Positions 1 through 40,035 of a stretch of DNA of 47,759 nucleotides are shown one piece after another. Source of the stretch: Parcubacteria group bacterium GW2011_GWA1_56_13 (GTDB lineage Bacteria > Patescibacteriota > Minisyncoccia > Phycocordibacterales > Phycocordibacteraceae). How positions within the stretch are numbered: position 1 is the first letter of the stretch; each line of letters opens with the position of its first letter. Below the pieces are notes generated by a model that worked only from the letters and a program-made list of their open reading frames with translations, was not told the DNA's origin and searched no databases. The translations under genes and the position numbers were made by a program. Location: the NCBI GenBank assembly GCA_001004905.1, contig LCRY01000004.1:1-47759 (forward strand), written 5' to 3'.

Positions 1-1345
<1,345 letters not shown>

Positions 1346-21087: not shown

Positions 21088-22971
21088 TTATTGCACGGCC
21101 GCATTCGTTGGGCTATACCCCGAATCCTGCGGGGTGTCGGTCGTCACCGGGTCGGCGGTCGCCGAGATCTGCACGCCGGCAAAGCGGTCATAACCCTTAA
21201 ATGACGCGACGCCGGTCAACTGCGGCGCGCTCCCCTTCTGCGAGTCAGAAGGAGTGAGCGAGACCTGGAAGGCGCCCTGCCCCGTTGCACCCTGCGCGAG
21301 ATCGCCAATGCTCCAGGAAACGGTGCGCGAAGCGTCATCATAAGAGAACGTGCCCACGCCGGAGGTCCTTCCGGTATAGGAAACGTAACTCGGCAGCGTC
21401 GCGCTCACCAGACCGCCCGCCACGGCGTTCCCTCTGCTCGACACATTCCATTGAACCGTATAGGTCGTCGCTTGGTCAGCGCGTGGAGGGATGGGGCCGC
21501 TGTTACTCAGAGGCCCCGAGGAGTGGAGCGCGGAGGCCGAGAGTGCTATCGCGGTTGCGACCTTCATCGTCTTCGTTTCGACCGCGCTTATCTCCTCAGG
21601 CACGTTCGTCTGCCCCACGCGCGTGCCGGACACGGAAATCGTAAAGGTCGCGCTCGGCGCCGCGATAAGAGCGTTCGCTGGAACGGTCGAGAAAGTAAAC
21701 GCGCCTATGCCGGAAGCGCCGGGGGCGAGCGCCGCGAGAGAGGAATCGGTGTCGCTGTTGAAGACGACCGTGTGATCGCTCGAGCGATAGAAGCCGTTCG
21801 TAGTCCGGATGCTGCCGTAATCAACGGCGGAACCCTTGATCGCGATGGCGACCGCCGCATTCGTAACGCTCGTAGAGAGCGTGTTGGTATAGGAAACCGT
21901 GACGCTCTGGATACTCCCGGGGCTTACGACGGGATTCGGCCTCGCATCTCCGTTCAACGCGAGAGTTGTCGTGATGAACGGGGCGGTGATCGTCACGGAT
22001 ACATCCTGTGTCATGTACGCAACGGCGGGTGTTTGGTCGCTCTCCGATTTTGCCGTGCCGATGGTGAAATGGAACACGCGCTGCTCGCTGTTCTGCCCCG
22101 TAAGCGTACCTGTAAGCGTCACTGTTTTGCTGGCGCCCGGTTGCAACGTGCCAAGAACAAAATTCGGGCCGTTCATGGGTTCCGAAGAGCTGGTTACCGA
22201 GAAACCGAAAGGAAAAACGCCGGCAAGAATGACGTTGTCGAGCGGCACATTCGCGTTTGAACGAGCGACCAATGTGAGCGTGAGCGGTTTCCCAGACACG
22301 GTCTCGCTTGTCGTATCAACCGACACCGACAGCGGTGACGAGGAGACCGCGAGCGCATATGAAGATTTTTTCAGGAAGACGGTGGAAGAATTGCCTGTGC
22401 CGTACGAAAAAGATACGGGCAGCGCGAGCGCCTGCCCCGCTCCCCCGAAGACGATGGCCTTTATCGAACGTGTTACCGTTGCGCCGCTTCCAAGTTCTCC
22501 GAGGTTCTCGGAGTGGCGCGGATACGGACTTAAAGAACCATCAGCGCTCAATGTTCCGTCCGGAAAGTCGATCTCCACGGTCGCATTCTTGATGGGGACG
22601 GGATTCCGGTTGGTTATGGTGAGCGACAGTGGGACGATATCGCCGCCGGCGATGGTTGTCGGGCCCTGGATGGAAACGGTGATCTTATCGACCGAGACCG
22701 AATTACCGCCGAAGTAAAAGAAATAGCCGGCGGCAAGAAGCGAGATGAGAAAGAATGTGAATGCGACCACGAAAAAAACACCGGCGAGGCGCACGTGCCG
22801 CTTCTCGCGGTACGGAATGCTTTGAAGCGGACGCGTCTCCCATGCGTGTGGCAGAGAGGAGTGGTCGGAAGCCGAAAGCGGGGAGCGCGTATGGGAGCCG
22901 GCGTCGGGCTCGTAGAGCCGTTCACGCGCTTTCTCAAGCGAACCAATATCGTCGTCAGAACGCGGTGGCAT
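21088..22971 (-). CDS. Large membrane-anchored surface protein with repeated beta-sandwich-like modules
   Basis: 627 aa. It has a cytoplasmic N-terminus, one TM helix (LAGVFFVVAFTFFLISLLAAGYFFYF) and about 520 aa of S/T/V/G-rich repeats of the type (KP)LTLTL...NVPL. Confidence 0.75.
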   Translation of the reverse strand: MPPRSDDDIGSLEKARERLYEPDAGSHTRSPLSASDHSSLPHAWETRPLQSIPYREKRHVRLAGVFFVVAFTFFLISLLAAGYFFYFGGNSVSVDKITVSIQGPTTIAGGDIVPLSLTITNRNPVPIKNATVEIDFPDGTLSADGSLSPYPRHSENLGELGSGATVTRSIKAIVFGGAGQALALPVSFSYGTGNSSTVFLKKSSYALAVSSSPLSVSVDTTSETVSGKPLTLTLVARSNANVPLDNVILAGVFPFGFSVTSSSEPMNGPNFVLGTLQPGASKTVTLTGTLTGQNSEQRVFHFTIGTAKSESDQTPAVAYMTQDVSVTITAPFITTTLALNGDARPNPVVSPGSIQSVTVSYTNTLSTSVTNAAVAIAIKGSAVDYGSIRTTNGFYRSSDHTVVFNSDTDSSLAALAPGASGIGAFTFSTVPANALIAAPSATFTISVSGTRVGQTNVPEEISAVETKTMKVATAIALSASALHSSGPLSNSGPIPPRADQATTYTVQWNVSSRGNAVAGGLVSATLPSYVSYTGRTSGVGTFSYDDASRTVSWSIGDLAQGATGQGAFQVSLTPSDSQKGSAPQLTGVASFKGYDRFAGVQISATADPVTTDTPQDSGYSPTNAAVQ

Positions 22972-23008: not shown

Positions 23009-23578
23009 TCAAAGCCCCGACGCGGTGATGCCGTGATTGATGCGGCGTATGTAGCGCGAGCGATGCTTCATGACCTCGGCGACAAGTTCGGGCGTAAAGA
23101 CGGCTGCCCCGTTCACGACCCTTTCTGCATCAAATCCGAGTGCGGCAAGAATATAGAGCACAACAAGCACCTCGAGGGCGTCATGGACGTCCTCGGGAAG
23201 AGTGGCGAGCGCTTCAAAAAATCCTTTCATGATGGAAAACAGCGCCGGTTCCTGCACTTCTCCCGCAACGAGTCGCAGGAGGAGACCGCATGCGCGGGCC
23301 GCTTTCACTCGCGGACCGGCGCCCTGAATGCGCGAAAACCAATTTTCTTCGAGGACCGCTCCGGCAATTCTCCAGTGTTCTTTCCCCCGCAGGAGCACGA
23401 TCTCGCTTTCGGCGAATGTCGCAAGGGCGGCGGCGAGTTTTGCGCCGGGACGGCGTAATCCCTGCGCTCGCGCCCGCACGAGTCCCAAATCCGGCGTGAG
23501 CAAGGTGACGAACGTGTTTGCCTCTCCCAGGGGCGAGCGGGAGAGCACGATGCCACGAGTTTCGTATTTATGCCTCAT
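23009..23578 (-). CDS. recO: DNA repair protein RecO
   Basis: The ORF runs from M50 of the track ORF and begins MRHKYETRGIVLSRSPLGEANTFVTLLTPDLGLVRARAQGLRRP, an OB-fold N-terminus typical of RecO. It overlaps the ileS stop by 11 nt. Confidence 0.85.
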   Translation of the reverse strand: MRHKYETRGIVLSRSPLGEANTFVTLLTPDLGLVRARAQGLRRPGAKLAAALATFAESEIVLLRGKEHWRIAGAVLEENWFSRIQGAGPRVKAARACGLLLRLVAGEVQEPALFSIMKGFFEALATLPEDVHDALEVLVVLYILAALGFDAERVVNGAAVFTPELVAEVMKHRSRYIRRINHGITASGL

Positions 23579-26411
23579 GACGGAGAAGATCGAACCCCAC
23601 CGTGCCGGTTGAAAGCGTCGCGGAATACTTGCCCCCTGCCCGAGTCTCGATCCGCACCCTGTCTTTCGGAGACAGTCCTTCCTGCTTGCGCGCCTCGGCG
23701 ACCGCCCGTGCCATCTCACGTTCATCGCCTTCTTTTATAAGCTCGGGTGTGAGGTTCGTATCGAGCGAAAGCTCCTCTCCCGCTGCAATTCTTTTTACAT
23801 TCACCTCGTCCGCAAGGATGGCGGCAAGTTCCTCCGAAAGTTCCCCGGGCATGGTGAGCGTCGAAAGCGGCTGACGGACTTTCACCCCCGCCTTCTGGCG
23901 TAGCTGGAGCGCCTCTGATGCAAGCGTACGGATGTTCTGCATTTCTGAAATCAATTTCTTGTCAGGGTCCCCGAAAAGATTCCACCCCTTCTTTACCTCC
24001 GGCCAATCGACGAGATGTACGCTCCCTGAGTCATTGGTTTCGCGTACGCCTTGGAAAAGTTCCTCCGCAATAAACGGCATGGCAGGAGCAATAACGGTTG
24101 AGAGCGTGCAGAGCACATACCGGAGTGTTGCAAGTGCGTCTTTCTTATCCCCTCCACTCTCTTTAAATCGGTCACGCGAGCGCCGCACATACCACGCCGA
24201 GAGGTCGTCAATAAATAGCGGGAGTGGTCGGACAGCACTGTCAAGTTTGTAGTGTTCGTACCCCTTGGTTGTTTCGTTAACAAGCTCTTTAAGACGCGCG
24301 AGTATCCAACGGTCGAGTACATTGGTGCTTCTATTTCCACGGACCGTATCGTCCTCATAAAGCTTGTAGAAGTTGAGAACGTTGGTGAGCCGGCCGATAT
24401 TTTTCTTTGCGACATCATCAACCCCGCTTTCGGAAAAGGCGAGATTCTCCGCCTGCATGACCGGCGACGAGAGCAGGTAAAAGCGGAGCGCGTCCGCGCC
24501 GTATTTCTCCACGATCTCCATCGGGTCGGGGTAATTCTGAAGTCGTTTGGACATTTTTTTCCCGTCTTCCGCGAGCACGATGCCGTTGACAATGACGTTT
24601 TGGAAGGCGTTTTTCTTGAATAAGGCGCCAGCGAGCACGTGCAGGTAATAGAACCAGGCGCGCGTCTGGTCCATGCCCTCGGCGATGAACTGTGCCGGAA
24701 ATGCCGCGTCAAATCGCTCCTTATGCTCAAATGGATAATGCTTTTCTCCGTACGGCATCGAGCCGGAATCGAACCAGGTATCGAGAACGTCCGGAATGCG
24801 ACGCATGTGTCCCCCACAGAGACAGGGAATCGTTATGTCATCCACGATGTGCTTATGCAGATCGGTTATCTTTTTTCCGCTGGCGGTCTCCAGATCCGCG
24901 ATATTGCCGAACACGCGTATCTTTTTGCAGGCCTCACAGCGCCAGATGGGTATGACGCTCGCCCAGAAGCGCTGGCGAGAAATGGACCAATCGCGCGCAC
25001 CGAGAAGCCATTTGCCGAATCTTCCTTCTTTGATATGCGCGGGCGACCAGTTGATACGTTTGGCATTCGAGAGCAGATTGCCTTTGAGTTTGGTGACCGA
25101 GACGAACCACGATGAGGTCGCATAATTGAGAAGTGGCGTCTCGCAGCGCCAGCAGTGCGGATAGGGATGGACAACATTCTCCTTCGCAAATAGTGTTCCG
25201 TGTTCTTGCAGATATTTCAGCACCGCGATGTCGGTGGAAAGCCTCTGCGAATCATCATCGGAACGAGGTTTTACTTCCATTCCCGCAAAATCACGCACTT
25301 CCGGCTTGAAGGTGCCGTCCATGTTTACGTGCTGCACGAACGGCAGGTCCTCTTTCTTCAGAAGTTCCCAGTCGTCGGCGCCGAAGGCGGGCGCTTCGTG
25401 CGCGATGCCCGTGCCCTCCTTTTCCGTCACGAAATCCGCCGCGTAGACCTTCCACCCATTCTCGCGGTTCTTAAGGTCTTTGTCGTTCACGTAGTAATCG
25501 AACGGCGGTTCGTATTTGAGACCGACTAAATCTCGACCCGTAAGCGTACCGGTAACTTTCGTCTTTACCGAATCTATATTCTCTTGAAAATTCTTATGAT
25601 CTTGTTTTGAATAAACGTACGTGCCATCAGTGACGCCGGGGAAATCTCTTATTTCAGTCTTTACATACTCGATATCCTTTCCGACCGCGAGCGCGACGTT
25701 CCCGGGCAGGGTCCATGGCGTCGTCGTCCAGGCGAGCAGGTATACATCGCCAGAAAGACCTATCTTCTCCGGATTCTTCAATTTAAATTTCACAGTGACC
25801 GCGATGTCCTTCACGTCCTTGTACCCTTCCGCGACTTCCTGCTGGGAGAGCGTCGTCTCACAGCGCGGACAAATGTGCATCGAGTGGTAATCCTCGTACA
25901 CGAGTCCCTTGTCATAGATTTGCTTGAATACCCACCACACCGATTCCATGAACGGTGTGTTCATCGTGAGGTAGGCATTCTCCATATCCGCCCAGCGGCC
26001 AATCCTCGGGATAATCTTCTTCCACTCGTTCACATAGGTGAGCACCCGTTCACGGCAGCGTTCATTAAACCTGGCGACGCCGTACTGCTTAATATCCTTT
26101 TTATGCTTAAAGCCGAGCTCTTTTTCTACGATGTTCTCTAGCGGTAGGCCGTGACAATCCCAGCCCCAGACACGCGGGACATGGTAGCCGCGCATCGTGA
26201 AGTAGCGCGGTATGACGTCCTTGATGACGCTCGCGACGATGTGGCCATAGTGCGGAAGTCCGGTCGCAAACGGGGGTCCGTCATAAAAAACAAATTCGCC
26301 CTTGGGGGATTTCTTGGCAAGTGACTTCTCGAAGATGCGCTCGCGCTCCCAAAAAGCGAGTATCTCTTCCTCACGCCTCGCCGCTTCAGACTTTTCGGAC
26401 ATATCGGGCAT
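23568..26411 (-). CDS. ileS: Isoleucyl-tRNA synthetase
   Basis: 947 aa with HIGH (PHYGHIV), GWDCHGLP, KMSKS (KMSKRL) and a CP1 editing insertion. Confidence 0.96.
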   Translation of the reverse strand: MPDMSEKSEAARREEEILAFWERERIFEKSLAKKSPKGEFVFYDGPPFATGLPHYGHIVASVIKDVIPRYFTMRGYHVPRVWGWDCHGLPLENIVEKELGFKHKKDIKQYGVARFNERCRERVLTYVNEWKKIIPRIGRWADMENAYLTMNTPFMESVWWVFKQIYDKGLVYEDYHSMHICPRCETTLSQQEVAEGYKDVKDIAVTVKFKLKNPEKIGLSGDVYLLAWTTTPWTLPGNVALAVGKDIEYVKTEIRDFPGVTDGTYVYSKQDHKNFQENIDSVKTKVTGTLTGRDLVGLKYEPPFDYYVNDKDLKNRENGWKVYAADFVTEKEGTGIAHEAPAFGADDWELLKKEDLPFVQHVNMDGTFKPEVRDFAGMEVKPRSDDDSQRLSTDIAVLKYLQEHGTLFAKENVVHPYPHCWRCETPLLNYATSSWFVSVTKLKGNLLSNAKRINWSPAHIKEGRFGKWLLGARDWSISRQRFWASVIPIWRCEACKKIRVFGNIADLETASGKKITDLHKHIVDDITIPCLCGGHMRRIPDVLDTWFDSGSMPYGEKHYPFEHKERFDAAFPAQFIAEGMDQTRAWFYYLHVLAGALFKKNAFQNVIVNGIVLAEDGKKMSKRLQNYPDPMEIVEKYGADALRFYLLSSPVMQAENLAFSESGVDDVAKKNIGRLTNVLNFYKLYEDDTVRGNRSTNVLDRWILARLKELVNETTKGYEHYKLDSAVRPLPLFIDDLSAWYVRRSRDRFKESGGDKKDALATLRYVLCTLSTVIAPAMPFIAEELFQGVRETNDSGSVHLVDWPEVKKGWNLFGDPDKKLISEMQNIRTLASEALQLRQKAGVKVRQPLSTLTMPGELSEELAAILADEVNVKRIAAGEELSLDTNLTPELIKEGDEREMARAVAEARKQEGLSPKDRVRIETRAGGKYSATLSTGTVGFDLLRHEA

Positions 26412-28369: not shown

Positions 28370-29635
28370 CTACGGATGTATAAAAGAGTCGGGAATGGGG
28401 TGTGCGAGCGCGAGCCGTGTTATCTCTTCCTTTGCGGCGAGCGCGCTTGTGCGCTTCGTGAGCACATCGATCATGATTTGCGCTACCTGTGCCGATTCGA
28501 CCTCACCCATGCCACGCGTCGTCATGGCCGGCGTGCCGAAACGGATGCCGGACGGATCCATCGGTTTTCTCGTATCATCCGCGATGGCGTTTTTATTGAG
28601 CGTGATGCCCGCCTGGTCGAGCAGTAGTTCCGCTTCCCTTCCCGAGATACCAAATGACGTCCACACATCGAGCAAAATGAGATGGTTGTCGGAGCCGCCC
28701 GTTATCATGCGCACGCCGTGTTTTCTGAATACGTTCTCCATCGCTTTGGTGTTCGCAATGATCCGTTCCGCATATTTTTTAAAAGAGGGCCGGAGCGCTT
28801 CGGCGAACGAAACCGCTTTCGCGGCGATCTGGTGCATATGCGGGCCGCCCTGGAAACCAGGGAACACCGCCTTGTCTATTTTTTTCGCGATGTCCGCACT
28901 CTCGCGCGTGAGGACCATACCACCACGCGGCCCGCGAAGCGTTTTGTGCGTCGTGGTGGTCATGACGTCGAAGCCGTACTCAAACGGGTTCTTCGCGGCG
29001 TTGCCCGCGATAAGTCCTGCGATATGCGCGATATCCATGACAGAAACGGCGCCCGTTTCGCGCGCGATATCGGCGAATTTCGCGTAGTCCAGCTCGCGCG
29101 GATATGCCGAGAACCCGGCGAGAACTATCTTCGGCTTCACCTTTTTGGCGACACGCCGCATGTCGTCGTAGTCCAGCTCGCCCGTTTCGATATTTTTCAT
29201 CTTGTACCGCACGAAATTGAATATCTTGGTGAGGTACGTCACCGGATGGCCGTGCGTCAGGTGCCCGCCATGAGAGAGGTCCATGCCGAGAACCGTATCG
29301 CCGGGCTCCAAGAGCGCGAAATACGTGGCGATGTTCGCGTTCGCTCCCCCCAGCGGCTGCACGTTCGCGAACGCGGCGCCGAAAAGCTTTTTCGCCCGCT
29401 CAACGGCGAGCGATTCCACTGCATCCGTAAATTCCTGGCCGCCGTAGTAACGCTTGCCCGGATAGCCTTCCGAGTATTTATTCGTCAAAGACGACGCCAT
29501 CGCCTCCTTCACCGCACGCGACACGTAATTCTCGGACGGAATGAGCTCCAATCCTTCCGCTTGCCGCTTATCCTCTCCTACAAGCGCGCGAAAAATGTCG
29601 GGGTCCTCCTGTTCTATGAACGGATACTCGCTCAT
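28370..29635 (-). CDS. glyA: Serine hydroxymethyltransferase
   Basis: 421 aa with LELIPSENYVS, YSEGYPGKRYYGG and the PLP-lysine motif TTTTHKTLRGPRGG. Confidence 0.97.
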   Translation of the reverse strand: MSEYPFIEQEDPDIFRALVGEDKRQAEGLELIPSENYVSRAVKEAMASSLTNKYSEGYPGKRYYGGQEFTDAVESLAVERAKKLFGAAFANVQPLGGANANIATYFALLEPGDTVLGMDLSHGGHLTHGHPVTYLTKIFNFVRYKMKNIETGELDYDDMRRVAKKVKPKIVLAGFSAYPRELDYAKFADIARETGAVSVMDIAHIAGLIAGNAAKNPFEYGFDVMTTTTHKTLRGPRGGMVLTRESADIAKKIDKAVFPGFQGGPHMHQIAAKAVSFAEALRPSFKKYAERIIANTKAMENVFRKHGVRMITGGSDNHLILLDVWTSFGISGREAELLLDQAGITLNKNAIADDTRKPMDPSGIRFGTPAMTTRGMGEVESAQVAQIMIDVLTKRTSALAAKEEITRLALAHPIPDSFIHP

Positions 29636-30060
29636 ACTCCGGTTGAACCGAACCCCCCTCGGTCGGGTGTATCGAGCGCATCAACCTCCTCCCATTCGAC
29701 GCGGTCAAACGGCAGGATGAGCATCTGCACAATGCGGTCCCCACGCTTTATTTCCACCGGCGCGTCGGTGAAATTGTATAGGGCGGCATGATACTCGTCG
29801 CTATCACCCGAAAAATCCTCGTCGCCGATGCCGACGCCGTTTATCATCATCACACCGCGCTTATGGAGCGAACTACGGGCCGCAAGGAGTACGAAGTGCC
29901 CGCGCGGCGGTTTGAGCGCCGCATTGAGCGGTACGAGCGAGATTTCCTCTGGCCCGATGACGGTCGTGGTCCGCACGACGCAGTCCATGGCCGCCGCGCC
30001 TGGCGTTCTGTATGCGGGAAGCGGCAGGGCGGTATCAATGCTTTTTATGGGAACTTTCAT
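29632..30060 (-). CDS. dut: dUTP diphosphatase
   Basis: 142 aa with GAAAMD, ARSSL, GVGIGDEDFSGD and a C-terminal GGFGSTG motif. It overlaps the glyA start by 4 nt. Confidence 0.9.
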   Translation of the reverse strand: MKVPIKSIDTALPLPAYRTPGAAAMDCVVRTTTVIGPEEISLVPLNAALKPPRGHFVLLAARSSLHKRGVMMINGVGIGDEDFSGDSDEYHAALYNFTDAPVEIKRGDRIVQMLILPFDRVEWEEVDALDTPDRGGFGSTGV

Positions 30061-30174: not shown

Positions 30175-31074
30175 ATGGACGCTATAACCCTCACACGCGT
30201 GTACTCACTGAAGTCCATGGAGGATATGCTTCGGCACATCACGTTCCGCGGTGCGTACAATGTCCGCGGTTCACACGTCTTCCCCTACCAGCATGCCAAG
30301 TTCTCGCTCACAACGGTGTATCCGCAGTCGTCTCCGGGCACGTCGCCCGAAGTGAAGATCGGACGGCGTCGCGAACCTTTGTTTACTCCCCAGCCGACCA
30401 TCTACGAGAACCAGACGAAAATCCTCGAGGAGGTCGATGAGTTCCTACTTGGACATGACATGAAAATGAGCGAACTGAAGCACGCCGTAGAATATGCGTG
30501 GGAAGGACGGGGTGAATTCCATATCCTGCCCCCGGTGATAGAAAAACACACGTACCGGCTGAAAAACGGCTACCTCGACCTTGCGCATCTCTTGAAGCGT
30601 TTTAAAGGCGTCTACGTGAAGGACGCCATAGGAAAACTGCACCCGCTTTCGAGCCGAAATCTGCGCTCATTCTATATAGATGAGGTAAGCAAGATGGACC
30701 ACCTCGACATCTTCAATTCGAACGTGCCGATCATCAATTACGGGCTCGGCCATGACGGGGAGTTTACGTTCTATATCGTGTGCGACGGCGCGCACCGACT
30801 CGATTATGTCCTGGAAAAGATAAAGCGACCCATCACTGCGCTTTTGGTCGAGCCGGCCAAGAAAGGCAGTACGCTTTATCCGTATTACGCGTTCCCGGTC
30901 CCGTTCCGCCCCACGCTACGGCTTTCCAGCAAGAAATCCGAAAAAATGTATCACCGGCTGGAACGGGACAAGATCCATCTGCTGAATGATTTCATAAAAA
31001 AGACGCTGCACTATGATTGGGAGGCGGGCGGCCTCAAGGTGAGCAAATTGCGGACCAATGTGGAGATATTTTAA
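30175..31074 (+). CDS. Hypothetical protein with a ParB/sulfiredoxin-like (ParBc) signature
   Basis: 299 aa. FYIVCDGAHRLDYVLEKIKRPITALLVE matches the h-h-DG-x-HR-h-x-A ... I-x-A-x-V pattern of ParB N-terminal/Srx-fold proteins. No P-loop was seen. The stop overlaps the next start (TAATG). Confidence 0.7.
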   Translation: MDAITLTRVYSLKSMEDMLRHITFRGAYNVRGSHVFPYQHAKFSLTTVYPQSSPGTSPEVKIGRRREPLFTPQPTIYENQTKILEEVDEFLLGHDMKMSELKHAVEYAWEGRGEFHILPPVIEKHTYRLKNGYLDLAHLLKRFKGVYVKDAIGKLHPLSSRNLRSFYIDEVSKMDHLDIFNSNVPIINYGLGHDGEFTFYIVCDGAHRLDYVLEKIKRPITALLVEPAKKGSTLYPYYAFPVPFRPTLRLSSKKSEKMYHRLERDKIHLLNDFIKKTLHYDWEAGGLKVSKLRTNVEIF

Positions 31075-31973
31075 TGCATCCTATGGAAGCTTCCGCGCTT
31101 GATTCGGCCCTCCGGCATTCCATCGATCTTTCCCTGCCCGGCAAAAGAGCGGCCGAGAGCGGTTCGGTCGCCGTCTCGCAGACGGGCGCTCTGTATCCGG
31201 CCGGCTGCCTGGGCTCGGAAACGCACCTCCTCAACATCTCTTCGGAATTGGCCGCGCTGGTGCGTGCGGTGCATGCGGACGATGTCCACATCGAGCGGAT
31301 ACTGACGGTCGTGAGCGACGCGCGAACGCCCGTTTCGCCGCTTGTGCTCAAGATACTCGCCGACCACGGCACGCGAACCGGGACGCCTATCTCGTATACC
31401 GTATGCGACCTGCTGGGCACCGTTCTCTTCGAAGTCGCCGACGCGCGCGAAGCGCTTCCGTTCTACAAAGGACCGGGGATGGTGCTGAAAGCGTTCGCGG
31501 ACCGCGCGGTGCAGACCAGGCGGGTGGCATTGGATCGGACATCCGCCGTAAGCCCCGAGCTACAACTGCGCACGTGGGCGCTCGCGGGCTGCGACCGCAA
31601 TTTTCCAACACGCGACGGGGCTTCCGGATACGGTGCCGCGCTTTTAACCGCGTCCGGGAACATATATTATGGGGGTCAGTATTCTACATTTGAACACCGC
31701 CTCGGCGTTCATGCGGAGATGGGAGTACTTTTGAATGCTCTCATGGATGGCGCGAAGGATATTACGCACCTCGGCCTCGTCTCGACCAAATCTCCGGACA
31801 CGCCGTGTAGCCCGTGCGGCTGCTGCCGGCAGTTCGTCGGGGAACTGTCGCGCGCATTCGATTTTTCGCCGGCCATGTGTCTCTTCGCATCCGGGAACGA
31901 AACATACACATCACATACAATCGAAGAACTGCTTCCGATACAATGGACGAATAAAAATGACCACCGGCGCTAA
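31074..31973 (+). CDS. Cytidine/deoxycytidine-deaminase-fold protein with a tandem (pseudo-dimeric) architecture
   Basis: The C-terminal half carries the zinc motifs HAE (LGVHAEMG) and PCxxC (TPCSPCGCCRQFVGEL), plus a terminal EELLP, as in Cdd. The N-terminal half is a degenerate copy (ISSELAAL and VSPLVLKIL replace them). Confidence 0.8.
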   Translation: MHPMEASALDSALRHSIDLSLPGKRAAESGSVAVSQTGALYPAGCLGSETHLLNISSELAALVRAVHADDVHIERILTVVSDARTPVSPLVLKILADHGTRTGTPISYTVCDLLGTVLFEVADAREALPFYKGPGMVLKAFADRAVQTRRVALDRTSAVSPELQLRTWALAGCDRNFPTRDGASGYGAALLTASGNIYYGGQYSTFEHRLGVHAEMGVLLNALMDGAKDITHLGLVSTKSPDTPCSPCGCCRQFVGELSRAFDFSPAMCLFASGNETYTSHTIEELLPIQWTNKNDHRR

Positions 31974-34362
31974 ACCGCAATTCCCCATAGTCGACGCGCT
32001 CCTATTCATCCCGCCGGAAACGGCCAGTGGCCACATCGGCGTGTGCACGAACACCACGGCGCCTGGCCAGGTATTCAACGACATTGCCGAGGAGAACCGT
32101 TCCGCTATTTCGGTTCTCGGCCCGCTTATCGTGAGCCGTGACGGCACCGAGCGCATGATACTGAACTCGCTCGTGCATCCGACAATCACGTATCTCATAC
32201 TCTTTTCCGAGGAATCGCTCACCTTTTCTCCGAGCACGAATCTGCTTTTGGCACTCATGCACGGGCTTGATGCAAAGCGCGGAGGAAACTATATCGCGAA
32301 CGGACAGGCTGCCTCGGCCCATTTCCCGAATCTCTCAAGGGACATCGTAGACCTCTTTCGGGAGCACATCATCGTCCTGCCACTCTTCATGTCGCAGAAC
32401 AAAAACAGTGCCGCGGTCGTCAGCGAATACCTGGAATGGCTCGGGGATCGCGTCCCGCCGAATATCCTCTGGTTCCTCAAAGAGACGAACGCCAAGGGAA
32501 AGAAATATTACGATTCGCTGAACGCCCTCATCACACTTCTCAAGGCCGCTCCGCACCGGAAGAAAGTTCCTGTGGAGCTCGACCCCAAGGATTTCCAGCA
32601 CTTGCAACCGCCCAAAATAGCCATAGCGGAGGATACGACGCCATACCCAGTCCCGTTCCGCGTCTCGCTTGAGGACAACCTGCTGCGGCTCGATATCCGG
32701 GTCGGCGATTCGCTGTATTTCATCCGCGGGGATGACGACTTCCGTATCGAGTACTCTCTGATGAAATTCCTCGGTAAGCGCAAGGCGTTGCTCACGCCTC
32801 ACGAGCAGCTCCTGATCGGCGCAGAACTGAATCGCTTGAACGTGGAGCGTCGGGCCGGTCTTGCGGCACCGCCGTTTGCGGAGTCCAACGACGTCCAAGG
32901 CACCCAGGAGATACTGCTTGAACCCAAAGTTGCGCTCGTCCCGGACCAGCAGTATTACTATAAGATCGGATTGAAGGACGCGGAGGTATCGGTTATGTGC
33001 ATGGCGTTCGATATCTGCGAGGAAGTGTTCGACCTACGCTCGACAGGAGCCGGCGGCATATTCGCATGGCTGGCCGAAAAAAACCGTTTTCAGGCGTATG
33101 AGATGGACATGCTCCACCGCATGGACGTGGGAGGACAGATCGGCCGCGCCCTTATCGCCGGCCGCTTCGGCTACTCGTTCATCCAGGACTTTCCGAGTAT
33201 TTTCAAAATAAACCGCGAAACACTACCGCTCCTTATTGCCGAAAGCGACTCGTTCCTCGACGTGCACCGCGGCATGCTCCTCAAGACGTACACGCAAGGG
33301 CTCACCGAAGAGCATGGTGACGCTCGCAAGGGTCTTTCGCGCAGTGCGGTCACGCTCGCCATCTATCGCGATGCGGTGAACGCATTTGCGCGGATGCCTT
33401 CGATCTATAAGCAGGGCGACGTCTCGACGGAAGAAATGCGCAGTGCGTATAAAAAGCAGCTCCTCCGGCTCGACCACGACGGCGATTACAGCTACGGGCA
33501 GCGCACGCGCGTACATTTCGGATTCGACCAGCTTGAACGGACGGCGGACGTTCTCAGCAAAGACCCTTCGCGAGCGGCGATCATCCAGCGCTTCGATCCG
33601 ACGGTCGATATGGACTCAACGCTGAATCCCGACACGAAGCGGAGAGAATATACGCACGATCCCTGCCTCACGCACGACATTTTCTTCATTGCGGATGGCA
33701 CGCTGCATTCTTTTCATATCGCGCGCGCTCACAATTTACCGAATGCGTACCCCGAGAACCTGTTCGGCCTCTATGACGCATACGTTTCGAGCGTGCGGGG
33801 AAAGCTGTCGCTTGCCTCCGGCGATCTTTACATGCTCTCTTCCCGCGGCAACATCCTGCTCCTCTCCGAAGAACAGCGTGTCCGAAAGATCATCGCGGAA
33901 CCCTCGAAGCCCATGGGCGACGTGGAGCGCACGAGCGGCCCGACTCTTCTTGGCGCAAATGTCCGGAAGGAAGTTCCCTGCGTGGGCGTTTTGTATGCGA
34001 CGGAACTGCTCAAGGACGTGCCGCTCTACTCGCATCCAATTATCGACCGTTTCAGGAACTTCGAGGGTGTCGATATCCTCGAACGCGCCGTCTCGTATCT
34101 TGTGGAACGCGGCGGAAGCCACAATAACCCGGTCCTCACAACCTATCAGGCCGGGACTTCCGATCCGCAGGCGGACCACCTTGTGTTTTACCAGGCGAAC
34201 GTTTTTGGCGGAAAGGTCTACGCTACCGCCGTATTCGCGAACCATGAACCAAGCCCTGCCGATGACTTGAAACTCGCCTCGGCCGTCGCAACCGTATATG
34301 CGACTCGTCTCGAGAAGCCGCTCGCCGAGGCGAATATTTTCTACATCAATGGCGCCGTTTAA
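31957..34362 (+). CDS. Large fusion protein: MtrA-like N-terminal domain, two DUF4346-like modules, and a thymidylate-synthase/dCMP-hydroxymethylase-fold region
   Basis: I chose the ATG at 31957, which overlaps the deaminase gene by 17 nt. The TS-like block reads YSYGQRTRVHFGFDQLERTADVLSKDPSRAAIIQRFDP...THDPCLTHDIFFIADGTLHSFHIARAHNLPNAYPEN. It is colinear with ThyA YGxQWR / DQL / NPxSRR / PCH / RSxD / PFN. The N-terminal GPLIVSRDGTERMILNSLVHPTITYLILFSEES resembles the MtrA core G..TEN.GIEK...N....NIRFLILCG.E. The N-terminal family calls come from memory of the patterns. Confidence 0.75.
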   Translation: MTTGAKPQFPIVDALLFIPPETASGHIGVCTNTTAPGQVFNDIAEENRSAISVLGPLIVSRDGTERMILNSLVHPTITYLILFSEESLTFSPSTNLLLALMHGLDAKRGGNYIANGQAASAHFPNLSRDIVDLFREHIIVLPLFMSQNKNSAAVVSEYLEWLGDRVPPNILWFLKETNAKGKKYYDSLNALITLLKAAPHRKKVPVELDPKDFQHLQPPKIAIAEDTTPYPVPFRVSLEDNLLRLDIRVGDSLYFIRGDDDFRIEYSLMKFLGKRKALLTPHEQLLIGAELNRLNVERRAGLAAPPFAESNDVQGTQEILLEPKVALVPDQQYYYKIGLKDAEVSVMCMAFDICEEVFDLRSTGAGGIFAWLAEKNRFQAYEMDMLHRMDVGGQIGRALIAGRFGYSFIQDFPSIFKINRETLPLLIAESDSFLDVHRGMLLKTYTQGLTEEHGDARKGLSRSAVTLAIYRDAVNAFARMPSIYKQGDVSTEEMRSAYKKQLLRLDHDGDYSYGQRTRVHFGFDQLERTADVLSKDPSRAAIIQRFDPTVDMDSTLNPDTKRREYTHDPCLTHDIFFIADGTLHSFHIARAHNLPNAYPENLFGLYDAYVSSVRGKLSLASGDLYMLSSRGNILLLSEEQRVRKIIAEPSKPMGDVERTSGPTLLGANVRKEVPCVGVLYATELLKDVPLYSHPIIDRFRNFEGVDILERAVSYLVERGGSHNNPVLTTYQAGTSDPQADHLVFYQANVFGGKVYATAVFANHEPSPADDLKLASAVATVYATRLEKPLAEANIFYINGAV

Positions 34363-35014
34363 CGCACACGATATCAGGGTCGTCGGGTTTGACCTCGACC
34401 AGACGCTCTACCCAAAGTCGCCGCTGGTCGACGAGAAAATACAGGAATATCTGTACGAAAAGATCGCATCCCACAAAAAAATACCGCTCGACGAAGCAAA
34501 GCAGCTTTTTGGGGAGCGCTATCGGGATGGTGCGGGACTCTCGGGAAGTGAGACGCTCCGCGACCTTGGCGTCCCCAACGCAAGCGAAGCGGTGCAGGAG
34601 GCCCTTGAGCGCGCCGACATCGCCTCCATTCTCTCCCCCGATCCGGACACGAACCGCTTACTTGAGGACGTGCGTACGCATTATAAAAATCTCGACCTCA
34701 TTACCGGCTCGAATCTACGCGAGACCGAGAAGAAACTCTCTGCGCTCGGAATTCCGAAAGAAATGTTCTCGCACCTCATAACTGCCGAACAGGCGGCGAA
34801 ATCCACGGGCGAGAGCTACCGGATCTGGCTTTCTCTCTACCCGGAGTATGCACCGCGGCAGTTTCTCTACATCGGCGACCGCATCCGCAGCGATGGCGAA
34901 ATTCCTTCTGCCCTCGGCATACACACCGCACTCGTGTGCGCGCAAAAGCCGGGTACTTCGCTTCCTACGATGCAGCTGCACAACCTGGCCGAACTCGCTT
35001 CTATCCTTCTATAA
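34349..35014 (+). CDS. HAD-superfamily hydrolase, SDT1-like pyrimidine 5'-nucleotidase type
   Basis: Motif I is GFDLDQTLY (DxDxT, followed by the LY typical of the pyrimidine 5'-nucleotidase subfamily). Motif II is LDLITGSN. Motif IV is YIGDRIRSD. The ATG at 34349 overlaps the upstream stop by 14 nt. Confidence 0.8.
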   Translation: MAPFNAHDIRVVGFDLDQTLYPKSPLVDEKIQEYLYEKIASHKKIPLDEAKQLFGERYRDGAGLSGSETLRDLGVPNASEAVQEALERADIASILSPDPDTNRLLEDVRTHYKNLDLITGSNLRETEKKLSALGIPKEMFSHLITAEQAAKSTGESYRIWLSLYPEYAPRQFLYIGDRIRSDGEIPSALGIHTALVCAQKPGTSLPTMQLHNLAELASILL

Positions 35015-39501: not shown

Positions 39502-40035
39502 CTAATACCGCGGATTTTCTTCCGCGACGCCCTTGAGATGGTTCGCGAGTCGCGCGAGCGCGAAGAGAAGCGACGAAAGACGGTTGAGGTACGCCATGGT
39601 AAAAGACGACATATCGCGTAGGCGCCTTTCTTTGACCGCAATGACGCGGCGCTCCGCTCGGCGAGCGAGCGTGCGCGCGATATCGAGCAAAGCGGACAGT
39701 TCGGTCCCTCCCGCGACCGAAAATCCCTTCAAGGGCGGAATTTCTTTTTCAATACCGTTCACTAATGTCTCGATCCCTCGTACTGCCTGCTCGCTCACTT
39801 TCTTGTCCGCGCCCGCAACCTCCGCCTGGACGATAAAAAGCGTTTCCTGCACCTCGCGCAAAGCGCCTGCGATGCGCGGCTCTTCCGCAGCGCGCACCTT
39901 CGCGAATCCGAGGAAGGCGTTTAATTCGTCGAGTGAACCGAGCGCTTCCGGCAATTCCGACGACTTCGAAATGCGCCGCTGGTCGCAGCCGAACGCCGTT
40001 GTCATTCCCCCATCTCCTTTGCCGCTATAGAGCAT
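39502..40035 (-). CDS. PduO-type ATP:cob(I)alamin adenosyltransferase family protein
   Basis: 177 aa. The N-terminus reads GKGDGGMTTAFGCDQRRISKSSELPEALGSLDELNAFLG. The helical bundle contains LFIVQAEV and SFTMAYLNRLSSLLFALAR. Confidence 0.8.
   Translation of the reverse strand: MLYSGKGDGGMTTAFGCDQRRISKSSELPEALGSLDELNAFLGFAKVRAAEEPRIAGALREVQETLFIVQAEVAGADKKVSEQAVRGIETLVNGIEKEIPPLKGFSVAGGTELSALLDIARTLARRAERRVIAVKERRLRDMSSFTMAYLNRLSSLLFALARLANHLKGVAEENPRY

What the first reader, a model, noticed from the sequence alone, without database searches (positions are those of the whole stretch)
31957..34362. Unusual domain fusion: MtrA-like N-terminus, two DUF4346-like modules and a thymidylate-synthase-fold domain in one ~800-aa protein
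Seen: residues ~1-170 contain GPLIVSRDGTERMILNSLVHPTITYLILFSEES...LLALMHGLDAKRGGNYIANGQAASAHFPNLS. This matches my memory of the MtrA (tetrahydromethanopterin S-methyltransferase subunit A) core pattern G..TEN.GIEK...N....NIRFLILCG.E...L.AL..NGID....I.G. Two ~90-aa modules follow (LDPKDFQHL...IRGDDDFRIEYSLMKF...HEQLLIGAELNR and LEPKVALVPDQQYYYKI...MLHRMDVGGQIGRAL). They resemble the DUF4346 pattern (DP.G.F.I ... H..YLG.EL). A TS-like catalytic block comes next, around DPCLTHD. The last ~150 aa (HLVFYQANVFGGKVYATAVFANHE) look like a second, degenerate TS-like strand pattern.

Established: MtrA binds a corrinoid and acts on a pterin C1 carrier, and TS enzymes use a pterin C1 donor.

Inference: covalently linking a pterin- or corrinoid-associated domain to a TS fold suggests a different C1 donor or reductant than in ThyA or ThyX. 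That would make it a new class of pyrimidine C5-transferase.
Basis: partly seen in the sequence, partly recalled or inferred. Interest (0 to 1): 0.75.

Follow-up and report, generated by a model that had tools for sequence, protein, structure and literature searches.

The report
Five-domain thymidylate-synthase-like protein of ultrasmall microbes
This is a real, conserved 801-residue enzyme of ultrasmall bacteria (CPR) and archaea (DPANN), in which a thymidylate-synthase catalytic core is fused to a degenerate copy of itself and to three accessory domains of unknown role; it most likely makes the DNA building block dTMP, but its cofactor site is altered and nobody has studied it.

Summary
Window 31957-34362 (+) encodes one 801-aa protein, found full length in more than 100 independent contigs, so it is not a mis-assembly.

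It has five domains:
- an MtrA-like Rossmann domain (1-205);
- two DUF4346-like beta3-alpha2 modules (206-302, 303-410) with no fold match in the PDB;
- a ThyA-superfamily catalytic domain (411-660);
- a degenerate half-TS domain (661-801), probably a built-in pseudo-dimer partner.

The catalytic Cys, the phosphate-binding Arg, the uracil-specifying Asn and the catalytic Tyr are invariant. ThyA's folate and 3'-OH contacts are replaced (D169->N, F176->E, H207->N, Y209->L). MtrA's cobalt-binding His/Glu pair is replaced by invariant Phe/Arg.

The gene lies in a four-gene, overlapping operon: ParB/Srx-like protein, two-domain cytidine deaminase, this protein, HAD pyrimidine-nucleotidase-like phosphatase. 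CPR bacteria and DPANN archaea share this operon. dUTPase and SHMT genes are often adjacent.

Best reading (confidence about 0.5): an atypical thymidylate synthase within a pyrimidine deoxynucleotide conversion module. I found no publication on the family. I rate it a new variant of a known kind.

The parts
31957..34362 (+). CDS of the 801-aa five-domain TS-family protein (stop codon included)
   Evidence: The ORF is listed. The start is fixed by homologue alignment and by the sequence. More than 120 full-length homologues exist.
31957..32571 (+). Residues 1-205: MtrA-like Rossmann-type domain, with no cobalt-ligating His or Glu
   Evidence: His84 aligns with F90 and Glu54 with R61. 30 residues are invariant across CPR and DPANN.
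32572..32862 (+). Residues 206-302: DUF4346-like module 1 (three strands plus two helices)
   Evidence: hhalign against a DUF4346 profile gives P 2e-3. The AF2 model has pLDDT 92. Foldseek finds no PDB fold match.
32863..33186 (+). Residues 303-410: DUF4346 (PF14251)-like module 2
   Evidence: PF14251 hits the equivalent region of P0128 (E 1e-5) and P0155 (E 2e-3). hhalign gives P 5.7e-4. The AF2 topology matches module 1.
33187..33936 (+). Residues 411-660: catalytic ThyA-superfamily domain. It keeps C570, R590, N601 and Y513; N593, E600, N632 and L634 replace ThyA D169, F176, H207 and Y209.
   Evidence: 57 residues are invariant.
33937..34359 (+). Residues 661-801: degenerate half-TS domain (no Cys, no Arg166). 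The invariant H722-N723-N724 sits where ThyA has R126-R127.
   Evidence: hhalign against archaeal TS domains gives 89% probability, P 2e-6. Its secondary-structure order parallels the TS core. Its invariant residues are listed.
30175..31074 (+). Operon gene 1: 299-aa ParB/Srx-like protein (Pfam ParB-CE) with a DG(S/A)HR motif
   Evidence: Pfam E 1.7e-4. Many homologues carry a precomputed PF24392 hit. It is present in 45 of 54 loci, 7 of them archaeal. Its stop codon overlaps the next gene's start (TAATG).
31074..31973 (+). Operon gene 2: 299-aa two-domain cytidine-deaminase-fold protein. The C-terminal domain is catalytic (HAE...PCGCC); the N-terminal domain is degenerate.
   Evidence: Family and PDB hits are. 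The internal duplication is shown by hhalign at 95.5%. A fusion to the TS protein exists in P0128. The gene overlaps the TS start by 17 nt.
34349..35014 (+). Operon gene 4: about 221-aa HAD-IA phosphatase, closest to pyrimidine 5'-nucleotidases
   Evidence: Family hits are. It is present in 47 of 54 loci, including 11 of 11 archaeal loci. A fusion to the TS protein exists in P0129. Its ATG overlaps the TS stop by 14 nt.
29632..30060 (-). Divergently transcribed dUTPase (supplies dUMP). It is a frequent neighbour of the operon but not part of the universal core.
   Evidence: Pfam E 3e-17. It is adjacent in about 20 CPR loci.
28370..29635 (-). Serine hydroxymethyltransferase (supplies methylene-THF). 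It is a frequent neighbour in CPR loci.
   Evidence: Pfam E 5e-147. It is adjacent in 14 loci.

Best explanation
The protein is an atypical, multi-domain member of the ThyA superfamily. It most likely methylates dUMP at C5 to give dTMP.

Proposed mechanism (inferred from ThyA chemistry):
- Cys570 attacks C6 of the pyrimidine.
- Asn601 reads the uracil face.
- Arg590, with Lys458 or Arg462, holds the 5'-phosphate.
- Tyr513 helps remove the C5 proton.

The C-terminal degenerate half-TS domain probably packs against the catalytic domain in place of the second subunit of the ThyA homodimer. That would make the chain a built-in pseudo-dimer with a single active site. Its invariant His-Asn-Asn sits where ThyA supplies Arg126'/Arg127' (inferred).

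The C1 unit most probably comes from methylene-tetrahydrofolate, made by the neighbouring SHMT (inferred from context).

The MtrA-derived domain and the two DUF4346-like modules form a conserved ligand-binding accessory unit. It no longer ligates cobalt through His. I take it to bind or present the pterin cofactor, or another cofactor, to a TS site that has lost ThyA's own folate contacts. This last step is the weakest.

The enzyme works within a translationally coupled four-gene module. My guess at the roles: the HAD phosphatase converts dCMP to dC; the cytidine deaminase converts dC to dU; the ParB/Srx-like protein acts as a kinase converting dU to dUMP; this enzyme converts dUMP to dTMP. 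That would give scavenging cells a dCMP-to-dTMP route. The order of steps and the kinase role are guesses.
For: - TS fold and profile matches.
- Cys570, Arg590, Asn601, Tyr513 and 53 further TS-domain residues are invariant across 46 CPR and DPANN sequences. They map onto ThyA C146, R166, N177 and Y94 in HMMER and hhalign alignments.
- The position that sets base specificity is Asn, as in dUMP enzymes, not the Asp of dCMP enzymes (plus established ThyA/dCMP-hydroxymethylase knowledge).
- The C-terminal domain aligns colinearly with TS at 89% probability. The full-length model has pTM 0.73.
- The operon ParB-like/CDA/TS/HAD is present, and mostly in the same order, in nearly all of 54 loci, including 11 from DPANN archaea. 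These four are the only gene families shared by the bacterial and archaeal contexts.
- Natural fusions CDA+TS (P0128) and TS+HAD (P0129) exist.
- Start and stop codons overlap between the operon genes.
- dUTPase and SHMT genes are adjacent in the window and in many other loci.
- The best family matches for the HAD protein are pyrimidine 5'-nucleotidases.
- CPR genomes commonly carry folA, glyA and folD (PMC11974145).
- JGI already labels several members as thymidylate synthase.
- No anti-phage defence match, and the family is essentially absent from viral contigs.
Against: - Four ThyA substrate or cofactor contacts are replaced by other invariant residues: D169->N593, F176->E600, H207->N632, Y209->L634. 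Neither folate use nor deoxyribose specificity is therefore assured.
- The protein scores far below the curated cut-offs of TIGR03283 (50 bits against 174.55) and mostly below that of PF00303.
- The family was found in only 53 GTDB species and about 10 full-length 50%-identity clusters. It is patchy, not the universal CPR enzyme. I could not check whether these genomes also carry thyA, thyX or folA.
- A phosphatase next to a dTMP-forming enzyme is not obviously helpful.
- The kinase role of the ParB-like protein has no direct support: no PDB or NCBIfam match.
- The function of the roughly 410 N-terminal residues, half of the protein, is not explained by any direct evidence.
Confidence: 0.5

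Rival explanations
1. Thymidylate synthase with a non-canonical C1 donor or reductant. The MtrA-derived domain would carry a corrinoid bound without a His ligand, as in the corrinoid iron-sulfur protein, or another cofactor. That cofactor would deliver a methyl group or reducing equivalents to the Cys570-activated dUMP, so no dihydrofolate would be formed and no DHFR would be needed.
For: - MtrA-TS fusions recur independently in archaea, most of them keeping the Gly-His cobalt-ligand motif. Some sit in housekeeping contexts.
- 30 residues of the MtrA-like domain are invariant across CPR and DPANN, and they lie in the loops that build MtrA's cobalamin pocket.
- ThyA's folate contacts D169 and F176 are lost.
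- A PduO-type cobalamin adenosyltransferase gene lies 4.5 kb downstream and recurs in 6 related loci, so these cells use corrinoids.
- Attack of a C5 carbanion on CH3-Co(III) is chemically analogous to SAM-dependent C5 methylation (inference).
Against: - His84 is replaced by Phe and Glu54 by Arg, and the GAIPF(Y/F)xEN motif is not kept.
- The conserved operon holds no MtrH-like methyl-pterin:corrinoid methyltransferase, no reductive activator and no Fe-S protein.
- SHMT, which produces methylene-THF and not methyl-THF, is the recurrent C1-related neighbour.
- The PduO-type gene is more simply explained by B12-dependent ribonucleotide reductase (own knowledge, not tested).
Confidence: 0.17
2. 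A pyrimidine-nucleotide C5-hydroxymethylase or other C5-modifying enzyme, of the MilA, dCMP/dUMP hydroxymethylase or AfhB type. The operon would then make a modified nucleoside or nucleotide, possibly on a ribonucleotide, with the HAD phosphatase releasing the nucleoside product.
For: - Foldseek's best target-normalised match (TMt 0.76) is a phage TS-fold dCMP hydroxylase, and MilA is also among the top hits.
- The residues that hold the 3'-OH in ThyA (H207, Y209) and the folate contacts are changed.
- The cassette is patchy and is shared between domains of life, as accessory modules often are.
- A phosphatase downstream of the TS fits release of a nucleoside product.
- One archaeal MtrA-TS fusion sits in a virus-like region.
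Against: - The base-specifying residue is Asn (uracil type).
- dUTPase and SHMT neighbours fit plain dTMP synthesis.
- The family is absent from viral contigs.
- The operon contains no glycosyltransferase, no further kinase and no other tailoring genes.
- The high TM-score to the phage enzyme largely reflects its small size; there is no sequence-level match.
Confidence: 0.15
3. Artefact: a chimeric mis-assembly or a fusion of separate genes caused by a sequencing error.
For: None found.
Against: - There are more than 120 full-length homologues of 792-836 aa on independent contigs from many samples.
- There are 53 genome loci with the same architecture in bacteria and archaea.
- Conservation is continuous across the domain borders.
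Confidence: 0.01

Closest known systems
ThyA thymidylate synthase (E. coli, human, VZV; PF00303)
   Same: Same fold (Foldseek probability 1.0). Nucleophilic Cys in a Pro-Cys motif, Arg166, Asn177, Tyr94 and the DQ helix are all conserved.
   Different: - It is embedded in an 801-aa chain.
- D169, F176, H207, Y209 and R126/R127 are not conserved.
- A fused degenerate half-TS domain probably replaces the second subunit of the homodimer.
- It scores below Pfam's threshold in most members.
Archaeal (methanogen-type) thymidylate synthase, TIGR03283 (MJ0757 type)
   Same: It is the best curated family match (E 2.5e-13, residues 487-606). Both are short, divergent ThyA cores whose cofactor specificity is poorly studied (PMC9012536).
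   Different: The score is 50 bits against a cut-off of 174.55, so this is not an equivalog. The archaeal enzymes are single-domain proteins of about 200 aa.
Uncharacterised archaeal MtrA-TS and MtrA-TS-DUF4346 fusion proteins (P0148, P0149, P0152 = Thermoprotei RLE55459.1-like, P0172, P0177)
   Same: They combine the same domain types. No function has been shown for any of them.
   Different: - They are 390-520 aa long, with a genuine MtrA domain (E 1e-35 to 1e-42) that mostly keeps the Gly-His ligand motif.
- Their TS domain is closer to PF00303 and keeps D169.
- They have no pseudo-TS domain.
- They lack the ParB/CDA/HAD operon.
MtrA and cytoplasmic MtrA homologues (PDB 5LAA, 5L8X, 8Q3V)
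   Same: The Rossmann-type core aligns over about 95 residues. The conserved residues fall in the same loops.
   Different: His84 is replaced by Phe and Glu54 by Arg, and the meander motif has changed. There is no membrane anchor and no Mtr partner subunits.
Bifunctional DHFR-TS of protozoa
   Same: A thymidylate synthase is covalently joined to a folate-related accessory domain. This is an analogy only.
   Different: The accessory domains here are unrelated to DHFR, and no reductase activity is indicated.
MilA CMP hydroxymethylase, T4-type dCMP hydroxymethylase and phage TS-fold dCMP hydroxylase (PDB 5JNH, 9IQU)
   Same: They share the TS fold and are among the top structural matches.
   Different: There is no sequence-level match. 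The base-specifying residue here is Asn, not Asp. The family is not found in phages or antibiotic gene clusters.

Membership tests
ThyA superfamily (thymidylate synthase / pyrimidine hydroxymethylase fold) | TS alpha/beta fold | tested here: met
   Foldseek against ThyA structures gives E about 1e-9 at probability 1.0. hhalign against archaeal TS domains gives 98.6%.
ThyA superfamily (thymidylate synthase / pyrimidine hydroxymethylase fold) | Nucleophilic Cys (E. coli C146) in a Pro-Cys motif | tested here: met
   D568-P569-C570 is invariant in 46 sequences and aligns with the PC(H) motif of VZV and E. coli TS.
ThyA superfamily (thymidylate synthase / pyrimidine hydroxymethylase fold) | Phosphate-binding Arg166, and Asn177 that specifies uracil | tested here: met
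   R590 and N601 are invariant and align with these residues.
ThyA proper (methylene-THF-dependent dTMP synthase) | Folate contacts Asp169 and Phe176 | tested here: not met
   The aligned residues are N593 and E600, both invariant.
ThyA proper (methylene-THF-dependent dTMP synthase) | His207 and Tyr209, which bind the deoxyribose 3'-OH | tested here: not met
   The aligned residues are N632 and L634, both invariant.
ThyA proper (methylene-THF-dependent dTMP synthase) | Arg126'/Arg127' donated by the partner subunit of an obligate homodimer | tested here: not met
   The aligned positions in the TS domain are variable or Ala. The pseudo-TS domain has the invariant H722-N723-N724 at this position. 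The oligomeric state cannot be tested with these tools.
ThyA proper (methylene-THF-dependent dTMP synthase) | Score above the curated family thresholds (PF00303; TIGR03283 for the archaeal type) | tested here: not met
   TIGR03283 scores 50 bits against 174.55. PF00303 is hit at E <= 1 by only 5 of 36 members.
ThyA proper (methylene-THF-dependent dTMP synthase) | Catalysis of dUMP + CH2-THF -> dTMP + DHF | not testable with these tools
   This needs an enzyme assay or delta-thyA complementation.
MtrA (corrinoid-binding subunit, PF04208) | Sequence or profile similarity to the MtrA Rossmann-type domain | tested here: inconclusive
   The relationship is real but lies below the curated threshold. 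The window protein scores 13.9 bits against the gathering score of 25. 30 of 36 members hit at E <= 1. The family profile hits 5LAA at E 7e-4. The reciprocal search retrieves 34 MtrA proteins.
MtrA (corrinoid-binding subunit, PF04208) | His84 as lower axial cobalt ligand, with Glu54 as its H-bond partner | tested here: not met
   F90 and R61, both invariant, occupy the aligned positions. The defining residues are taken from PMC4915002.
MtrA (corrinoid-binding subunit, PF04208) | Meander motif GAIPF(Y/F)xEN | tested here: not met
   The aligned segment reads AASAH(F/Y)PN in CPR members and G(V/I)AHQYPS in DPANN members.
MtrA (corrinoid-binding subunit, PF04208) | Bound corrinoid | not testable with these tools
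   This needs UV-vis spectroscopy or ICP-MS on purified protein.
PterinBD-DUF4346 (PF14251) | Profile match and the motifs DPxG(F/Y)F ... HAxYLGxEL ... YxQD | tested here: inconclusive
   - Module 2: the PF14251 hits in relatives are below the gathering score (26.7 bits against 29.6, E 1e-5). hhalign gives P 5.7e-4 over the full length. The motifs are recognisable as D..YYYK, HR.D.G.(Q/E) and (F/Y).QDF.
- Module 1: hhalign gives P 2e-3, and the predicted topology is the same.

The most novel reading that the evidence does not exclude
The MtrA-derived domain and the DUF4346 modules carry a cofactor (a corrinoid bound without a His ligand, a flavin, or a tightly held pterin). That cofactor supplies the methyl group or the reducing equivalents to a ThyA-fold active site. 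CPR and DPANN cells, and the archaea with MtrA-TS fusions, would then make dTMP without producing dihydrofolate. This would be a third mechanistic class of thymidylate synthesis beside ThyA and ThyX.
Probability: 0.17. Interest if true: 0.9.

Novelty: new variant of a known kind. Interest (0 to 1): 0.6.

Why it matters
Thymidylate synthesis is one of the best-studied reactions in biology and a major drug target. Only two enzyme classes are known, ThyA and ThyX.

This ThyA-fold enzyme has:
- an altered cofactor site;
- a built-in pseudo-partner domain;
- about 410 residues of conserved accessory domains, one derived from a corrinoid-binding protein and two with a fold not seen in the PDB.

Its four-gene operon is shared between ultrasmall bacteria and ultrasmall archaea.

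If the enzyme is a plain TS, it shows how far the ThyA scaffold can be rebuilt, from homodimer to pseudo-dimer. It would also define a compact dCMP-to-dTMP salvage module in organisms that live on scavenged nucleotides.

If the accessory domains supply the C1 unit or the reductant, it would be a new mechanism of dTMP synthesis. It would also give a first function to DUF4346 and to the many non-methanogen MtrA homologues.

The cross-domain sharing of the operon is a clean example of gene exchange between CPR and DPANN.

Tried and rejected
- Literature. Searches for MtrA+TS, DUF4346, ParB-CE, CPR/DPANN TS, corrinoid+TS and AfhB found no paper on this family. One of them was badly framed and wasted.
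- Homologue search with the TS-domain profile. It returned only fragments of the same family, some from DPANN, and no stand-alone archaeal TS for comparison.
- PDB sequence searches. The C-terminal domain, DUF4346 and the ParB-like protein gave nothing significant.
- Foldseek of the two DUF4346-like modules alone, on a model with pLDDT 92. The best hit had E 0.22 and TM <= 0.24, so the fold has no solved relative.
- Structure prediction of the ParB-like protein.
- A conserved Cys pair in module 2 as a possible redox or metal site. I rejected this because the DPANN orthologues have Ser at the first position.
- An anti-phage defence reading of the operon. There are no PADLOC hits.
- A phage origin. 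Only one distant TS match turned up in IMG/VR.
- Checking whether carrier genomes also encode thyA, thyX or folA.
- Direct comparison of the protein's own TS domain with its C-terminal domain gave only P 0.01. The relationship became clear only with an archaeal TS profile.

Full report
**Observation**

The window contains an ORF at 31735..34362 (+).

A search of 5.8 billion proteins returned more than 120 full-length relatives (792-836 aa, 49-84% identity) on independent contigs. The named ones come from Parcubacteria/Paceibacterota, Kaiserbacteria, Sungbacteria, Zambryskibacteria, Saccharimonadales and Gracilibacteria. A scan of GTDB species genomes found 53 loci, 11 of them in DPANN archaea (Woesearchaeota, Nanoarchaeia, Iainarchaeum), at 40-44% identity over residues 8-797.

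The fusion is therefore genuine and old. Mis-assembly is excluded.

**Anatomy**

An AlphaFold2 model built on 36 sequences is confident (pLDDT 84, pTM 0.73). It divides the chain into five parts.

*(i) Residues 1-205: an MtrA-like Rossmann-type domain.*
- The window protein alone gives only weak hits: Pfam E 0.043, NCBIfam E 3e-5.
- 30 of 36 members hit Pfam MtrA.
- The family profile hits the MtrA crystal structures at E 7e-4.
- A profile of residues 1-415, scored against 1.84 billion representatives, retrieved 35 proteins outside the family. All 35 matched through this domain only, and 34 of them are genuine MtrA-domain proteins.

*(ii, iii) Residues 206-302 and 303-410: two modules of three strands followed by two helices.*
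- Modelled alone, they give pLDDT 92 and pTM 0.88.
- Module 2 is DUF4346-like. PF14251 hits the equivalent region of two relatives at E 1e-5 and 2e-3. hhalign against a DUF4346 profile that I built gives P 5.7e-4 over the full length.
- Module 1 gives P 2e-3, against 0.14-0.32 for the three control domains.
- Foldseek finds no solved structure resembling the pair (best E 0.22).
- No sequence relative of these modules outside the family reached E 1e-3.

*(iv) Residues 411-660: a ThyA-superfamily domain.*
- TIGR03283 gives E 2.5e-13.
- Foldseek matches ThyA structures at probability 1.0.
- hhalign against archaeal TS domains gives 98.6%.

*(v) Residues 661-801: a degenerate half-TS domain.*
- They align colinearly with the TS core, from the 'DQ' helix through the beta-hairpin and the long helix to the last strand, at 89% probability (P 2e-6).
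- They lack the catalytic Cys and Arg166.

The weakest is module 1.

**Active-site audit**

HMMER and hhalign alignments to VZV and E. coli ThyA, together with invariance across 46 CPR and DPANN sequences, give this mapping:

| ThyA residue (E. coli numbering) | Role | Residue here | Status |
|---|---|---|---|
| C146 | nucleophile | C570 | kept, invariant |
| R166 | phosphate binding | R590 | kept, invariant |
| N177 | uracil specificity | N601 | kept, invariant |
| Y94 | C5 proton removal | Y513 | kept, invariant |
| D169 | folate contact | N593 | replaced, invariant |
| F176 | folate contact | E600 | replaced, invariant |
| H207 | 3'-OH contact | N632 | replaced, invariant |
| Y209 | 3'-OH contact | L634 | replaced, invariant |
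| R126/R127 | phosphate binding, from partner subunit | variable or Ala | not conserved |

At the position matching R126/R127, the pseudo-TS domain carries an invariant His-Asn-Asn. I infer that the C-terminal domain replaces the second subunit of the ThyA homodimer. I have not shown this.

In the MtrA-like domain, the cobalt ligand His84 and its partner Glu54 (defined in PMC4915002) align with invariant F90 and R61. Yet 30 residues of this domain are invariant across both domains of life. They cluster in the loops that form MtrA's ligand pocket. The pocket seems to be kept, but its chemistry has changed.

**Context**

The gene is the third of four overlapping genes (junctions TAATG, 17-nt and 14-nt overlaps):
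1. A 299-aa ParB/Srx-like protein (Pfam ParB-CE, DG(S/A)HR motif).
2. A 299-aa cytidine-deaminase-fold protein with a catalytic C-terminal domain and a degenerate N-terminal one.
3. The TS protein.
4. An HAD phosphatase whose best matches are pyrimidine 5'-nucleotidases.

I called ORFs in the fetched loci and clustered those of 54 of them. These four families are the only ones shared by the bacterial and archaeal contexts: TS in 54 loci, HAD in 47, deaminase in 46, ParB-like in 45. Natural fusions deaminase+TS (P0128, 1111 aa) and TS+HAD (P0129, 981 aa) exist.

In the window, dUTPase and SHMT genes lie immediately upstream on the other strand. dUTPase recurs in about 20 loci and SHMT in 14, almost all of them CPR, so part of this recurrence may be inherited synteny.

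None of the four proteins matches an anti-phage defence model. The family is essentially absent from IMG/VR viral contigs.

**Relatives with the same domain logic**

Among the 35 nearest MtrA-domain proteins, 13 also carry DUF4346 and 7 carry a TS domain. Examples are archaeal proteins of 390-520 aa with MtrA-TS or MtrA-TS-DUF4346 order (P0148, P0149, P0152, P0172, P0177).
- Of the three whose sequences were read, two (P0148, P0152) keep the Gly-His ligand motif and one (P0149) has Tyr there; all three keep ThyA's D169.
- Two sit in ordinary archaeal neighbourhoods.
- One lies next to thymidylate kinase and a MazG-like gene.
- One lies in a virus-like region.

The association of MtrA, DUF4346 and TS is thus recurrent and functional. 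I found no paper that discusses it. A recent genomic study states that ThyA biochemistry in methanogens is little known (PMC9012536).

**Interpretation**

The most economical reading is an atypical thymidylate synthase acting on dUMP with methylene-THF. Three things point that way:
- the catalytic residues and the uracil-type Asn are conserved;
- the dUTPase and SHMT neighbours fit this chemistry;
- folA, glyA and folD are frequent in CPR genomes (PMC11974145).

The operon can be read as a dCMP -> dC -> dU -> dUMP -> dTMP route using phosphatase, deaminase, a ParB/Srx-type kinase and the TS. The kinase role and the order of steps are guesses. They rest only on the known phosphotransfer activity of other ParB/Srx-fold proteins (own knowledge).

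I put about 0.5 on this reading.
- Against it: the His/Glu ligands are lost, and there is no loading methyltransferase.
- For it: the folate contacts are lost, the pocket is strongly conserved, the archaeal fusions keep the His, and a PduO-type cobalamin adenosyltransferase gene nearby shows corrinoid use.

A hydroxymethylase or other modifying activity gets about 0.15.

**Limits**

- The family is patchy: 53 GTDB species and about 10 full-length clusters at 50% identity.
- I could not determine whether carrier genomes lack thyA and thyX or have folA.
- I could not inspect the inter-domain contacts in the model.
- Half of the protein still has no assigned activity.

**Verdict**

This is a real and well-conserved protein that has not been characterised. 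It is a new variant of a known kind (the ThyA superfamily). The mechanistic question it raises can be tested directly. Interest 0.6.

Noticed in passing
window 39502-40035 (-): A PduO-type ATP:cob(I)alamin adenosyltransferase (PF01923, E 4e-41) lies about 4.5 kb downstream of the operon. The same family recurs near the operon in 6 related loci and at the edge of L005. This shows corrinoid use in these reduced genomes.
   Followed up: partly
loci L047-L062 (DPANN) compared with L010-L046 (CPR): The whole four-gene cassette (ParB-like, deaminase, TS fusion, HAD) is shared between CPR bacteria and DPANN archaea at 40-50% protein identity, with nothing else in common in the flanks. This looks like inter-domain transfer of an operon.
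   Followed up: partly
window 31074-31973 (+): The deaminase is an internal duplication. It has a degenerate N-terminal CDA-fold domain (SSE in place of HAE, no PCxxC) and a catalytic C-terminal one (hhalign 95.5%). So both this enzyme and the TS in the same operon are catalytic-plus-degenerate pseudo-dimers. The residues that hold the ribose in B. subtilis CDA do not seem to be kept; that comparison is from memory.
   Followed up: partly
L007 (P0152), L009 (P0149), L065/L066 (P0177), L067 (P0172): Archaeal MtrA-TS and MtrA-TS-DUF4346 fusion proteins of 390-520 aa, mostly keeping the cobalt-ligand His. One sits in a virus-like region with a resolvase and many small ORFs. One lies next to thymidylate kinase, a PfkB kinase and a MazG-like gene. 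In P0149 the base-specifying Asn is Asp, which would suggest a cytosine substrate.
   Followed up: partly
L008 (P0155, 811 aa): A divergent relative with the same architecture (MtrA-like, DUF4346, TS, C-terminal domain). It keeps Asp at the ThyA D169 position and sits beside divergently transcribed HAD and ParB-CE genes, with no deaminase. The flanks hold many small ORFs and a purine DNA glycosylase.
   Followed up: no
window 1-1342 (-): The window starts inside a 23S rRNA gene. 1342 bases cover model positions 1-1155, so about 190 extra bases are present, possibly an insertion or intron as often reported in CPR rRNA.
   Followed up: no
L001 14055-17867 and L005 1-1947: The isoleucyl-tRNA synthetase of some related genomes (1174-1270 aa) carries a histidine-phosphatase (PF00300) domain inserted within the catalytic domain. 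The window's IleRS (23568-26411, 947 aa) does not.
   Followed up: no
L042, L051 and L047: Contigs carrying the CPR-type operon are labelled 'uncultured Gammaproteobacteria', and one DPANN-type copy is labelled 'Methanosarcinales archaeon'. These labels probably reflect binning or labelling errors in the source MAGs.
   Followed up: no
window 32572-33186 (+) (residues 206-410): The tandem DUF4346-like pair is predicted with very high confidence (pLDDT 92, pTM 0.88), yet it has no Foldseek match in the PDB (best E 0.22). No DUF4346 structure appears to be solved.
   Followed up: yes
window 21088-22971 (-): A 627-aa protein with a DUF11 repeat (E 1.6e-8), probably a surface protein, sits between the RecO gene and a class II aminoacyl-tRNA synthetase gene.
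   Followed up: no
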